Notes under the pieces: generated by a model
What the model was told of the DNA's origin: nothing
Database searches by the model: none
Seen by the model: the letters and a program-made list of their open reading frames with translations, nothing else
In this document: positions 16,053 through 33,100 of the stretch, piece after piece
Layout of the letters: the number at the start of each line of letters is the position of its first letter
Position numbering within the stretch: position 1 is the first letter of the stretch
NCBI GenBank assembly: GCA_951406725.2
Contig: OX597828.1
Span: 62,682,001-62,746,000, forward strand
DNA from: Octopus vulgaris
Lineage: Eukaryota
Direction of reading: 5' to 3'
Length of the DNA: 64,000 nt
Position numbers and translations under genes: made by a program

Positions 16053-19044
16053 ATAATATTCTTGTTTAAAAATAATACGTAAGTATAGAGAAACCCTTCA
16101 GACCAATGTAGAATTGTTATTATAATGACTGAACATAAAAACAAAATCATACACACTTATATATATATATGTATGATTAATTAAGTTTCTGTCTGCTAAA
16201 TTCCATCCACATGATACTTGTCAACCTGAAAGTAAGATAGACAAACAACTGTTCAAGGTGCCGTGTTGTGGGGTTGATCCTGAAGACACATTGTTCCAAA
16301 TGAAGCCAACTTTTAACCACATAGCCATTCCTGAAGTCATAAGTGGCATATTTATAAACTTAGGACACAGAGTACCTATAGAAAAGTGAACACTATATGT
16401 ATATATGATATATATGTATGTATGTATATATATATATATACACACACACAATGATATAGTCCGTTAATGATAATACATTACAAATTCAAATTTTGGCTCA
16501 TGCCAATCAATCAATCTATCATACAAACACACATACACACACACAAAGACATATATATATATATATATATATATAAGCCAAATTCCTAGGTCAATAACAA
16601 TTCTCAATAACATTACAACAACAACAATACCAGCGCCAATAATTGGTTTCTTGAATGAATGAAGAGGAGAATAAAACTGGTTCTTTTATTCGCAACCAAA
16701 AAAAAAAAAAGGAAACAATGTACAGACGTAACTGGAAAGAAAAACAAAACGATGAAATGAGGCTTAGCCGACATTATTATTATTATTATTATTGTAACAA
16801 TCTCAGGAATAATTTGTCTTTGTTTTTGTTGTTATTTTCTTGTCTCTCCTTATATATATATATGTGTGTGTGTGTGTGTATTTGTGTTTATTTTTATTTT
16901 GTAATTTTTTTTTTCTTTTTTTTTTTTCTTCAGTATTCCTTTCTTGAAATGCAATGTAATCGAATATTGTGAGTGTATCTATCTAATCTAATATATATAT
17001 ATATATATATATATATACATACACATACATACATATATGCATACATATATATATATATATATATATACACACATACATATATATATATACACACATACAT
17101 ATATATACGCACATACATATATATATATATATATATATATATATATATACATACATATATATATATATATGTATATATATATATACACACACATACATAT
17201 ATACATACACACACACACATACATACAACCATCCATTCATACAGATATATACACATACGTATATATATATATATATATATATATATATATATATATATAT
17301 ACACACACATATATACATACACACATATATAATATATATATACATATGCATGTAATATATACATATGTATATGCAATATACTTATATGTGTGTATGTATA
17401 TATGTATATATAAATGCTAAAGAAAGGAGAATTATACATTTTTATTCAGATTATGCATGTTATACATTTTATATATATATATTTATAAATGTATGTATAT
17501 CATACACACAGGTGTATACATGCGTAGTAGTTCTAAGACCTCTACCTACATAACATGTGTAAGTGATCCATGAATCCACAGGTAAAGTGAAAGCTATCCT
17601 TCTTTAGTTTTTGGTTGTCAGTTGATCGTTTGTCACTCTTATCTCGCATTCTTTTGGCTATACATGTTGGTGTGTATTTATGCATGTAATGTGTACACTA
17701 TACATATATATATATATATATATATATATATATATATATATATATTCACACACATACATGCATACTGGATTATGGGGATTTATCTGCAACATGTGGAGAA
17801 GGCTGTAAACCTTGCACTAAAATTGTGATTTCGAATCACAAGAACACGAGCCTTTGCTTCCGACTGGTGTAGAAGCAGTGGTACATTTGTGGCGCCTTCA
17901 AAACCAGAGGAATTACTTGTCTGGTGGTGTTGTCATTGTGTTGTCATGTTGCTGTCATTCCTTCAAGCATCGCACATTTTGATTGGGGACGGGACGTTTG
18001 AATGGGAAAGGAGAATGTTTGGTGTATTTGAACGACTGGAGAAAGTGTCTTGTGTGTATAACGCGGATGGTTATACATACAGGATTATTCATGTGTATGT
18101 ATATGTGAATGATTCTGTTTCATATGTACATGTATATTTTTACATAAACACACACACAAAACACAAATTAGGGCATAAATATTTGTGAACATGTTTATCA
18201 TATACAATATGTACATGTGTGTATGTATAAATATAGATGTCTGTGTATATGTATTTTTGTATGTGTTTATAGTATTTATATATATATATATATATATATA
18301 TATATATATATCATGTATATATATATATCATGTATATATGTATATGGACATAAGTATTTTCTAAGCTTATAGTATGTATATGTGTATACACACACAAACT
18401 CCTGCTCTTAAATCTCCTACCTGCTTATTTTCCTAAAAAAAAAATCAACAATATCACAAACTTTTGTTTTAATTATTGTAAAAAATATAATTAACAGTCA
18501 CATTAATTATTCCATAATAATTAACTGGAAACAATTAGAGTGCTGAAGGAATTAATTGGAATATTTTCTTTTTATTTACCAAGTGACACGTTGACCCCTA
18601 CTCATTGTGATGTCATTGTTTCTCATTTGATTATCTCATTTACTTGGGTTTGATATCTCATTAACAAAGAGGCCGGTAATGAACCCTGGCAGTTGGAAGG
18701 CCAAACCACCATTCAGTGATGCATAGGATTTTCTTGTTGAGCTTCTTCTGAGTATTTACTCTGCTGCATACTCAGTATTTTGAGTTACCACTCAGAAAGA
18801 CTCTCTTCAGCTTCTACACAGATTATTTCTGTTTCCTACTGTAAACACACACACACACACACACACACAGCCAGAAGTGGAGAGTAGGGAAATGTTTGAT
18901 GGTGCTGGCTTTGGAAGAACAAAAGACAAGGTTGGTTTCGGCAGGATTGGAATTCAAAAGAAATGCTGCAAGATGCTTTTGCTTGATGAATTCATGAATC
19001 TGCCAATTCGCTGTGCTAATAATAATAATAATAATAATAATAAT

Positions 19045-19728
19045 AGCACAGGACCAAGTCAACTTTAGGAATGAGCAAGTGTCACCACTGTGCCGCATCT
19101 GTAATAGAGCGGATGAAACCATTGCCCATATCATGAACGAATGCCCTAGACTTGCCTAAAACCACTACAAGTTGTGGCAACATGACCAGGTAGCGAAAGT
19201 GCTACATTGGAAACTGTGCAAAGTGGGGCTAGAGAGAGGCAAGACGTGGTATGAGCACAAACCGCAGAGAGTTACAGAGTCGGAGACTAGCAAAATCCTC
19301 TGGGATTTCCCAGATCCAAACAGACCTGACCTAGTGGTGGTCACAAGGTGCACCACATATGCTATATACTTGATGTTGCATGCCCCTTTGACACACGAAT
19401 AGTCAAGAAGGAAGGCAAAAAGATAAATACAACCCTCTTAAGTATGAAATAATCCAGCTATGGAAAATGAAGAAGGTGAAGATAATGTCAATTATTGTTG
19501 GGGCCTTGGGAACAGTATCAGAAGACATCAAGAGGAATATAAAGGAAATTGGAATAGAGTGCCCAGTAGAATTGTTACAAAAGGTTTGCCTCCTTGGCAT
19601 GGCCAGAATAATCAGGAAAGTATTAGACAGCTGAAAAGAGCGAATAGCATGGTGCCGTAGGCTGCAGGTAGAAAGCCTGCTATGCATAGAAGACTCTGGG
19701 AGTTCCAAAAAGACCCACGAGAAAGAGA
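19045..19728 (+). mobile_element. 3' fragment of an R4/Dong-clade non-LTR retrotransposon, degenerate
   Basis: Frameshifted translation gives a CCHC knuckle (CRICNRADETIAHIMNEC), HDQVAKVLHWKLC, ILWDF, NRPDLVVV, DVACPFD and IIVGALG, i.e. a restriction-like endonuclease domain; flanked by (TAA)n on both sides. Confidence 0.85.
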
Positions 19729-30185: not shown

Positions 30186-33100
30186 CTAAAGCTCAATTCA
30201 ATCAACTGTAACAAACTTATGGCCTTGTGCCAGTCTGCCAAACTATTATTATTATTAATTAATTTCATAATGATCCAGCATGTTAATTAACAAAAGACTC
30301 ACTGACAAGATTTTGTGAAACCAGTCCCACTTTTTCAATTCTTGTTACATTTTATTATTATTATTATTTAGCTTGGTGGAATGGCAGAAAATCCTTAGAG
30401 CTTTGGACCAAATGCCTTGCAGTATTTTGCTCCGGCTCTTTACATTTTGAGTTCAAATTCTGCTATGGTTAACTTTGCCTTCCATCCCGCCAGGTTCTAT
30501 AAATTTCCAGTCAAGTACTGGAGTTGATTTAATCGCCTGCACCCTTCCCTTCAAATTTCAAGCCTTGTCTCCATGTTAGCAACATTGTTATTAATTATTA
30601 TTATTAATTATTCTTAGTAAATGAAGTGGCCAAGTAGGTGAGATGTTGAACTTGCAACTGCTTGTTTGTGGGTTCATTTCCCACTTACAACTGTTGGCAT
30701 TTCATTTTGTGTCGTTGGGCAGGATACTTAAAATCTATGTGCCTCACTTTGTCCAGCTGTCAGTGGAATGAGCATTAGAGATTTCTTATGATGCCAGAGG
30801 GTGGACGCTGAATGAGAGAGACTGTTGTTGTCTTAGCCAGCCAGAGGCAGACCCTTGTCTCTCCTCTGCTAAATGCTAATAAAACCTGGATCTATGAAGA
30901 CGTGTGACCGACTTTCTATATTTCTGTGCTTTGTTTGTAGAAATTGTCTATTATTGTTGCACTTTTGGAATTTTGGGAGATAAAAAAATGGTATTTCTAT
31001 AAAGCTAATTTACCATGATGCATTGTGCCTTAATTGGTGGAGGGCTCTCTTCACAGATTTCTTTGCATCTGTTCCAAGACCTCTTTAAATGCCAAAATGG
31101 GATTAGGTTCCTGTATTTTTTAATTATTTTTTTTTATTGCAATATTTTTAATCCATCGAAAACAGAATTATGTTTTTCTCTCCATTTCTAATAAACCAAA
31201 ATGTCTCACTTGCAGAAACTTTTGGAATTTTCTATTTCATTTTAGGAATTTGTATTCATTCTTTGTTCTTCCTTTCATTTTTGCATATTTTAAAAAATCT
31301 CTTTTTGGAACAATTCCATGTTGCAGTTGAAGAAATATCTTCCAAAATAACCACAAAATGATTTGTAAGTGCTTGTATCAATATATAAACAAGCATGTGT
31401 GTGTGTGTGTGATGAAGGTCACATTGTGTTCAATGAAGTCTGCTGGTCGTTTGCTAAGATAATGAGTTGAGGACTGGCTAGTGATTCCAGCTATAATGGG
31501 CACAAGGTCTCTAAAAGACTCGTCAGTAGGAGCCTGTTAATTTATGCTGCTAAAACATTTTTTGCATGTTTTGTTCTGCCTCAAAGAATTTTGACAACTG
31601 GTATGCTCACACCATTTTTTTCTTTTTACATTTACAAATTTCATGACTCTCATGTTTACATATATATGTGTGTGTGTATGTATACATATGCATATGTACA
31701 TTTATATGTAATACACATATATGTATATATAAGTAAATGTGTATATATACGTGTGTGTATGTATATATATTTATATATTATACACATAAATGTGTGTTAC
31801 TTCTAATGCATTGATTTTTTGTCTTTTCGTAAATTTTGTGAAATTGTTTGTAAGAAAATTATTTAAAAAAAAAAAGACTTTTATAGCCCTTGAGTAGGCA
31901 AAACGAATTGTTTTTTTCCTTTTATATTTCATTTTTAAAATTTCAATGAAAAATAAATTTCTGAACGAAACCCTGCAAGACTATTGGGACTGGATCTGTG
32001 GTTATTTTCAAGTGACTGGGTCACTTACCGACGCTTTCATTGTCTCAAAGATGATAAAAATATAACAAAACAAAAAAAAACCTGAAAGAGAGGGGCAAAA
32101 AAAAAAATTGTTTTACTTATAATAATGGTGATTAATTTATCATCATTTTTATTTTTATTCCTTTTCACTTTTTTATACTAAAATTTATTTATTTTCTCTT
32201 TTTTCTCCCTTTTTACTCCTCTTCTCACTTTCCCACACTGTTTTCATCTCGCTTCCTTCAAATTTTTTTTCCATCATTTTTCATGTAATTTGTTGTAAAT
32301 TTTTGTATAAATCAATCGAACACACACACTCACCCACCCACACATACACTCAGAAACACACACACACACACACAGAAAGAAAGAAAAGGAAAATATACAA
32401 AAAGCAGTATAAAGACAACTAATAAAACACTAAATTTGTTGAAAGAATATATAATAAACCATAATGAACAAAGATATTTAAAAAAAAAAACAACATATCC
32501 GTCCGAATTCAATTTAACCATTTTTTTCTCTCTCTCACTTTCTCTTTTTTTGTTCTGCAAAAATAAAAATTAAAAATTAAAAATAGGACAAATAAAAACA
32601 AAAATTTTTTATTACTTTGACGAAAAAACTTTTTTTTTAATTTTCTTTCATTACAAAACTGCAGACAACGTCTAAATTATTGAAAAAAAAAATTTCTTGT
32701 TTGGAGAATATAAATCCCTGAGAACAACGAATTTCTCCATTTATATTTGTTTGTGTGTGTATATATATATATATATGTGTGTGTGTGTATATATATATGT
32801 ATACACACTCACACACAAGCCTGCACATGTGTGTATATATATATACATACATAAATATATAGGTATATACATGTGTGCATATATATATATATAGACATGT
32901 ATAATATATATGTGGGTGATTTACGGAATAAAAAAATAGACCCAGCCCCCAGCCCCTAACTAAACTTTTTAAAAAATACAATGTTTGCAATTTATTCAAC
33001 AAGAAAGCTACATAGTTCAGATATTTATCGTCCAAAAACCTTAAAAATCTGTTAATAAAAAAAATTAAAAACAAACAAAAAAGATTAAAAAATCTTTTCT

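What the first reader, a model, noticed from the sequence alone, without database searches (positions are those of the whole stretch)
17570..31560. A string of + strand structured-RNA islands downstream of the C2H2 gene: candidate giant structured 3' UTR or modular lncRNA
Seen: between the ZNF stop codon and the A/T-rich, AATAAA-containing zone at ~32-33 kb there is no credible ORF. Yet about a dozen GC-richer 80-200 nt islands sit among the microsatellites, near 17.6, 17.8, 18.75, 20.5, 21.3, 22.45, 28.2, 28.5, 28.9, 30.65, 30.8, 31.05 and 31.45 kb. Each folds by eye into a long hairpin or a 3-/4-way junction. Non-Watson-Crick positions are mostly G:U on the + strand (TGAACTTGCAA/TTGTGGGTTCA, ATAACATGGT/ACTGTGTTAT, TCTGCCT/AGGTGGA, TGTGTTCA/TGGGCACA, AACGTGTATTC/GGATATGTGTT). 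On the - strand these would be A:C mismatches, which suggests selection on an RNA fold rather than DNA palindromes. The islands are unrelated in sequence. Known: coleoid cephalopods have long neural 3' UTRs, heavy ADAR editing and expanded miRNA sets. Inference: one ~18 kb transcript carries many conserved structural modules pushed apart by microsatellite growth, or hosts small ncRNAs.
Basis: partly seen in the sequence, partly recalled or inferred. Interest (0 to 1): 0.78.

Follow-up and report, generated by a model that had tools for sequence, protein, structure and literature searches.

The report
Repeat debris behind a zinc-finger gene
The thirteen 'structured islands' behind this (likely octopus) zinc-finger gene fold, as a set, no better than random DNA of the same genome, four of them lie in copies of dispersed repeats that are likely old transposons, and the stretch is likely an ordinary long, repeat-littered transcribed tail rather than a modular RNA machine.

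Summary
The quoted stems are in the sequence, but the 13 islands are not more stable than chance: mean best z -1.51 against -1.12 for 285 random unique loci of the same genome (p 0.12, before allowing for selection by eye). The G:U argument fails: G:U stems are as common on the minus strand and in shuffles. Four islands, holding four of the five quoted stems, are dispersed repeats: a palindromic MITE-like relic (20.5 kb), a Penelope-type hammerhead relic with a broken core (21.3), the 5' end of a pogo/Tigger transposon on the minus strand (22.45) and a tRNA-head SINE (30.65). No Rfam family, H/ACA or C/D architecture was found. The strongest hairpins (14.9, 15.97 kb; z -8 to -10) are multi-copy palindromes outside the finding. 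Transcription is plausible: transcriptome-sized contig sets hold 27.6-33.4 kb and CpG depletion is of gene-body type, but strand and continuity with the ZNF are not shown. Conservation could not be tested (relatives about 1% apart). Best reading: a long 3' or read-through region between convergent ZNF and polymerase-kappa genes, filled with microsatellites and transposon debris. One single-copy hairpin (28.5 kb, z -3.3) stays open.

The parts
12845..14692 (+). C2H2 zinc-finger ORF, 615 aa in one coding exon; acceptor-like site at 12539, likely first exon at about 2250-2378
   Evidence: orthologue-like P0028: 51% and 77% identity in two blocks, same C-terminus; CpG-rich zone at 2-6 kb; first exon is inferred
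14693..33400 (.). 18.7 kb region behind the stop: 28% microsatellite, 24% repeat relics; candidate long 3' UTR or read-through, strand not shown
   Evidence: accounting, CpG o/e 0.21-0.28; cover by contig sets guessed to be RNA, 26.6-33.4 kb only
14915..15020 (.). palindromic repeat (MITE-like), long near-perfect stem, z about -10 on both strands; outside the finding
15960..16055 (.). palindromic repeat (MITE-like), z -8 to -11; 61 matches from 40 scored of 121 candidates in the genome; outside the finding
17563..17898 (+). islands 17.6 and 17.8: no second copy found, folding at background (z -0.5 to -1.2)
18735..18815 (+). island 18.75: no second copy found, modest hairpin (z -2.8 on +, -1.8 on -)
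19050..19640 (+). decayed 3' end of a non-LTR retrotransposon, frameshifted; CCHC knuckle and restriction-like endonuclease motifs (family label recalled)
19747..20177 (+). two copies of a high-copy repeat family, inverted relative to copies at 29161-29326, 29540-29665 and 30376-30583; predicted long-range duplexes
   Evidence: duplex z -7 to -15 in 4 pairs; same-orientation control z 0.1
20429..20564 (.). island 20.5: old palindromic dispersed repeat (MITE-like); the quoted stem folds worse than shuffles (z +1.4)
   Evidence: profile of 5 copies: 12 hits in 1.2 Mb, 0 in decoy
21289..21375 (+). island 21.3: relic of a dispersed repeat whose family carries a type I minimal hammerhead motif (Penelope-type); both core boxes are altered in this copy, predicted inactive
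21803..22575 (-). island 22.45 lies in the 5' end of a pogo/Tigger-like DNA transposon (TA + terminal repeat, subterminal repeats, CENP-B N-terminal helix-turn-helix), interrupted by 21956-22260
28170..28282 (+). island 28.2: no second copy found, folds worse than shuffles (z +1.35)
28472..28572 (+). island 28.5: no second copy found, long imperfect hairpin, z -3.3 on +, -2.3 on -; the best open candidate
28845..28960 (+). island 28.9: C-rich/G-rich tract pairing, z -1.8 to -2.1, no second copy of the folded part found
30627..30762 (+). island 30.65: decayed tRNA-head SINE; its hairpin is already present in young copies of the family
30790..31510 (+). islands 30.8, 31.05, 31.45: no second copy found, folding at background (z -0.8 to -1.2)
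32000..33500 (.). A/T-rich zone with CpG o/e 0.71 and AATAAA on both strands (7 on +, 8 on - in 32-34 kb); likely where the two convergent transcripts end
   Evidence: the 3' ends are inferred
36190..36322 (-). likely last coding exon of the convergent DNA polymerase kappa-like gene (name recalled from the translations)

Best explanation
The islands are ordinary-composition DNA left between expanded microsatellites in what is likely a long transcribed 3' region (an extended UTR or read-through) of the zinc-finger gene; nine fold at or near the level of random genomic loci and four lie in dispersed repeats that are likely transposon relics, whose folds are likely inherited from the element rather than selected here. 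How it arises: microsatellites and mobile elements inserted into the gap between two convergent genes over a long time (shown: 28% and 24% of the region). Each element brought its own symmetry: palindromic ends (20.5), subterminal repeats that are likely transposase-binding sites (22.45), a tRNA-like head hairpin (30.65), a hammerhead (21.3). Decay kept some pairs as G:U. If the region is made as one + strand RNA (inferred), its strongest double-stranded parts would be the two palindromes within 1.4 kb of the stop, inverted repeat pairs about 10 kb apart and the (AU)n tracts, which would be ADAR substrates; this would be the usual repeat-driven editing of UTRs, not a modular fold.
For: Folding: 13 islands mean best z -1.51, 9 without a second copy -1.28, against -1.12 for 285 random loci; p 0.12 and 0.32. 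Strand symmetry of z and of G:U stems. Repeat identity: 22.45 gave 42 matches (one the window itself) from 40 scored of 382 candidates, 73-85% identity, both orientations; 2 of 5 translated copies hit CENP-B_N, one above Pfam's cut-off (21.6 against 21.2 bits). 21.3 has 15 other loci. The 20.5 profile hits the window on both strands and 12 places in 1.2 Mb, 0 in decoy. 30.65 matches SINE profiles over 135 nt (E 1e-4) and 5 places in the sample, 0 in decoy; 4 of 4 young copies folded form the hairpin. Transcription: 14 of 24 listed runs, guessed to be RNA, 57-135 million letters, 5 studies, hold 0.61-0.93 of the words of 27600-33400, where a set of that size is 2-5% of the 2.8 Gb genome (inference); two such sets cover unique pieces at depth 7-17 and one 1090-nt contig spans 28163-29228. 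CpG o/e 0.21-0.28, like the polymerase body (0.27) and the low mode of a bimodal genome sample (36 of 120 loci); octopus methylation marks bodies of expressed genes (PMC9476566, passages).
Against: Nine islands have no second copy in my searches and could still be constrained; conservation was not testable. The region is a little more stable than the rest of the window on both strands and poorer in young repeats than most gene-body loci (18%; 1 of 36 low-CpG loci is lower). 28163-29228 shows 3 differences in 985 nt between organisms A and B against 8 in 1005 nt nearby (p 0.12). The runs are only guessed to be RNA, no silent control stretch was laid, 14.7-26.6 kb was not examined for cover, and strand rests on a weak T>A skew (+0.13 in 26.5-32 kb, -0.06 in 33.5-36.2 kb). 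Many AATAAA sites lie upstream (first at 15237), so most mRNA may end early.
Confidence: 0.72

Rival explanations
1. A mostly neutral long UTR that holds one or two real single-copy RNA elements (28.5, perhaps 18.75), such as a lineage-specific pre-miRNA or an editing or localisation hairpin.
For: 28472-28572: z -3.26 on +, 0 of 200 shuffles as good, -2.31 on -; single copy; inside a contig of a run guessed to be RNA, with no difference listed there for organisms B and D (27 rows not shown).
Against: Bounds were chosen after seeing the fold; windows with z < -3 occur at 19 of 716 outside and 5 of 159 inside the region, so about four are expected by chance. Rfam gave one match at E 0.31, 18 bits against a cut-off of 60.
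Confidence: 0.14
2. One reading: one ~18 kb + strand RNA carrying about a dozen conserved structural modules pushed apart by microsatellites.
For: Stems exist; 27.6-33.4 kb is held by transcriptome-sized contig sets; mild depletion of young repeats; neural octopus genes use longer UTRs (PMC9699675 supplement, passages).
Against: Set-level folding at background; no + strand bias; four of five quoted stems lie in mobile-element copies, one on an element coded on the minus strand.
Confidence: 0.06
3. The RNA cover comes from the other side or from a separate unit: a long 3' extension of the minus-strand polymerase gene, or a lncRNA starting in the CpG-retaining zone at 32-33.5 kb; the islands are equally neutral.
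For: Contigs carry no strand; 32-33.5 kb has promoter-like CpG o/e 0.71; stems of 10 bp or more are in greater excess on the minus strand (60 against 27 in shuffles).
Against: T>A skew on + in 26.5-32 kb flips beyond 33.5 kb, which fits convergent ends near 32-33 kb; the skew is a weak marker in this window.
Confidence: 0.06
4. A snoRNA host: the islands are intronic H/ACA or C/D RNAs of a spliced non-coding extension.
For: 17.8 and 28.2 show H-box-like and ACA words by eye.
Against: 0 H/ACA and 0 C/D architectures on + against 1.6 and 0.3 expected per equal length of background (my own simple scorer, not benchmarked on true snoRNAs); no Rfam match; no GT..AG joint among the 15 shown of 528.
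Confidence: 0.02

Closest known systems
Long neural 3' UTRs of octopus edited at repeats (PMC9699675; passages of main text and of the supplementary PDF seen)
   Same: Long non-coding stretch behind a regulatory gene, many tandem AATAAA sites, hairpin-forming repeats; the paper finds most editing in introns and 3' UTRs.
   Different: 18 kb would be about 50 times the reported median of 350-380 nt; continuity and editing are not shown here.
Minimal type I hammerheads in pseudo-LTRs of Penelope-like elements and animal retrozymes (PMC6155905, PMC8557442, 10.64898/2026.07.22.740005; passages seen)
   Same: Family of the 21.3 island: both core boxes, cleavage triplet, very short helix III, and an inverted partial copy directly upstream in 7 of 15 other loci.
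   Different: The window copy has both core boxes altered and no inverted copy; no Penelope ORF was looked for; Rfam does not call the family; one extra base follows the first box.
pogo/Tigger (Tc1/mariner) DNA transposons (terminal-repeat likeness recalled)
   Same: TA then a terminal repeat, subterminal repeats, CENP-B N-terminal helix-turn-helix.
   Different: Only the 5' end is present, frameshifted and interrupted; no DDE domain or second end was found or sought further.
Inverted Alu pairs in human 3' UTRs (recalled)
   Same: Opposite copies of one repeat family in one putative transcript form predicted long duplexes.
   Different: Copies are 70-77% identical and 9-10 kb apart; nothing measured on RNA.
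Clec2 3' UTR hammerhead of rodents (named in a figure legend of PMC6155905)
   Same: Hammerhead motif in the sense orientation downstream of a stop codon.
   Different: That one is reported as a domesticated ribozyme; this copy lacks the catalytic G8 and G12 and is predicted dead.

Membership tests
Conserved structured RNA modules | Folding better than matched background | tested here: not met
   p 0.12 for 13 islands, 0.32 for the 9 without a second copy
Conserved structured RNA modules | Strand preference for the transcribed strand | tested here: not met
Conserved structured RNA modules | Cross-species conservation and covariation | tested here: inconclusive
   relatives about 1% apart, 26.6-30.1 kb only; no orthologous locus among 14 metagenome loci
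Extended 3' UTR of the ZNF gene | Region present in RNA | tested here: inconclusive
   held by contig sets guessed to be RNA; none on record as RNA; no silent control
Extended 3' UTR of the ZNF gene | Continuous + strand molecule from stop to a poly(A) site at 32-33 kb | not testable with these tools
   only unstranded contigs were offered
Type I hammerhead (family of island 21.3) | Core boxes CUGANGA and GAAA, UH cleavage site | tested here: met
   both boxes intact in 4 of 12 other aligned copies; 1 of 15 loci passes a full pattern scan
Type I hammerhead (family of island 21.3) | Three helices supported across copies | tested here: inconclusive
   84.6% of cells paired against 18-45% when slid, but covariation not above shuffles (52 of 500)
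Type I hammerhead (window copy) | Intact catalytic core (G8, G12) | tested here: not met
   roles of G8 and G12 from PMC6155905
Penelope-like element | Inverted truncated copy beside the pseudo-LTR | tested here: met
   7 of 15 other loci, palindromes of 60-180 nt; feature described in PMC8557442; absent in the window copy
Penelope-like element | RT and GIY-YIG ORF | not tested
   only about 400 nt of flank was fetched per copy
pogo/Tigger transposon (island 22.45) | CENP-B N-terminal helix-turn-helix | tested here: met
   2 of 5 copies hit PF04218 (E 1.7e-4, above cut-off; E 0.006); one more at E 0.14, window piece no hit
pogo/Tigger transposon (island 22.45) | TA target site and terminal repeat | tested here: inconclusive
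   shared end, mostly behind TA, in 11 copies printed; the other end was not identified
pogo/Tigger transposon (island 22.45) | DDE catalytic domain | not tested
   copies fetched cover the 5' end only
tRNA-derived SINE (island 30.65) | tRNA-like head with A and B boxes, dispersed copies | tested here: met
   alignment to family profiles (box consensus recalled); 5 hits in 1.2 Mb, 0 decoy
MITE (20.5, 14.9, 15.97) | Short, palindromic, multi-copy | tested here: met
MITE (20.5, 14.9, 15.97) | Target-site duplication and link to an autonomous partner | not tested
   not examined
H/ACA or C/D snoRNA | Box motifs with the expected hairpins | tested here: not met
   Rfam
pre-miRNA (island 28.5) | Small-RNA reads from both arms with precise ends | not testable with these tools
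   no small-RNA run offered; the miRNA data file of PMC9699675 could not be opened

The most novel reading that the evidence does not exclude
The zinc-finger gene makes a true 18-kb 3' UTR isoform, some 50 times the octopus median, whose structure is supplied by transposons: two palindromes next to the stop and inverted repeat pairs 10 kb apart form ADAR substrates that control the long isoform, and the single-copy hairpin at 28.5 kb is a new coleoid RNA element.
Probability: 0.12. Interest if true: 0.5.

Novelty: already known. Interest (0 to 1): 0.14.

Why it matters
As found, it matters little: it is a worked example of how a repeat-rich animal genome yields convincing folds by eye, and of why G:U counts on one strand are no evidence of RNA selection. 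Two small by-products are useful: a dispersed octopus repeat family with a Penelope-type hammerhead that Rfam does not call, and a map of the real double-strand-forming parts of a candidate very long UTR. If the 18-kb isoform were shown, it would be an extreme cephalopod UTR and a compact test case for repeat-driven editing of a transcription-factor mRNA.

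Tried and rejected
Rfam at gathering score on the window: 0 hits; E-value scan of 14.7-34 kb: the 150 shown of 311 were almost all microsatellite matches to miRNA models, all below cut-off; focused scans of four island stretches gave 0, 0, 0 and 1 weak match; 15 loci of the 21.3 family gave no gathering hit and the best copy no hammerhead match. 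The repeat finder on the window was swamped by microsatellites, as was the genome search with 28140-29080. ARAGORN: one tRNA call inside the coding exon, taken as chance. No RNA holder on record was listed for 27600-33400; 4 listed runs held next to none of the words. Bins without cover (8 of 30 for X1, 4 of 30 for X10) say nothing. The protein search returned mostly generic zinc fingers and one orthologue-like protein without context; metagenome contigs gave 14 loci, none orthologous. Single-sequence nhmmer against 1.2 Mb found only 30.65 among 30 segments and missed 20.5, so 'no second copy' is a weak statement; 249 further de novo profiles added nothing for eight islands and one weak G-rich match at 28.9. 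The annotation file in the supplement of PMC9699675 was too large to read, and the later files of that archive (miRNAs, conserved sites) were not reached; they may show the real 3' end. Earlier findings of the scan: nothing. Paper searches for a description of such a locus returned 0, 0 and 1 unrelated paper; this is no proof that none exists.

Full report
Setting. The window lies on contig C15 of a 2.8 Gb genome; size, microsatellite load and repeat types point to an octopus (inference). A single-exon C2H2 ORF at 12845-14692 (+) has an orthologue-like protein from an unnamed assembly with the same C-terminus. A polymerase-kappa-like gene (name recalled from the translations) runs on the minus strand and likely ends near 36190, so the finding sits in a 21-kb gap between convergent genes. 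Of 14693-33400, 28% is microsatellite and 24% recognisable repeat relic.

Noticed in passing
window 14915-15020 and 15960-16055: Two near-perfect long hairpins within 1.4 kb of the ZNF stop, both multi-copy palindromic repeats; the best double-strand candidates in the region.
   Followed up: partly
window 14630-14720: The ZNF ends in half a finger (two cysteines, no histidines) and the orthologue-like P0028 ends the same way; a histidine codon follows the stop in frame. Truncated finger kept across species, unexplained.
   Followed up: no
window 21956-22260 and 29928-30185: A local duplication of about 300 nt (89% identity in its first half), 8 kb apart; one copy interrupts the Tigger-like element; no copy found in the 1.2 Mb sample.
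   Followed up: partly
L115, L117, L119, L121 (G000): Other genomic copies of the 21.3 family keep both hammerhead core boxes; the profile finds 2 more in 1.2 Mb, so a few thousand copies are likely. Rfam does not call them.
   Followed up: partly
L017 near position 22 (G000:C4): A clean minimal type I hammerhead of another family turned up in the random genome sample.
   Followed up: no
window 32000-33500: A/T-rich, nearly repeat-free zone that keeps CpG (o/e 0.71) inside a CpG-poor domain: a constrained UTR end or a separate promoter; 16.6-17.0 kb looks similar by eye.
   Followed up: partly
window 2250-2378: CpG-rich short exon with a donor site and a short ATG-led frame; likely the first exon of the ZNF gene, 10 kb upstream of the coding exon.
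   Followed up: no
window 36965-37030: Strong palindrome (z -7 to -9) in an intron of the polymerase-like gene, built from two opposite pieces that resemble the common repeat family.
   Followed up: no
window 23480-26560: About 3 kb of (TA/TGTA)n microsatellite with one young repeat copy inside; self-complementary over hundreds of bases if transcribed.
   Followed up: no
window 62245-62691: Exons of an acyltransferase resembling tafazzin (name recalled from the translation), + strand, head to head with the polymerase-like gene.
   Followed up: no
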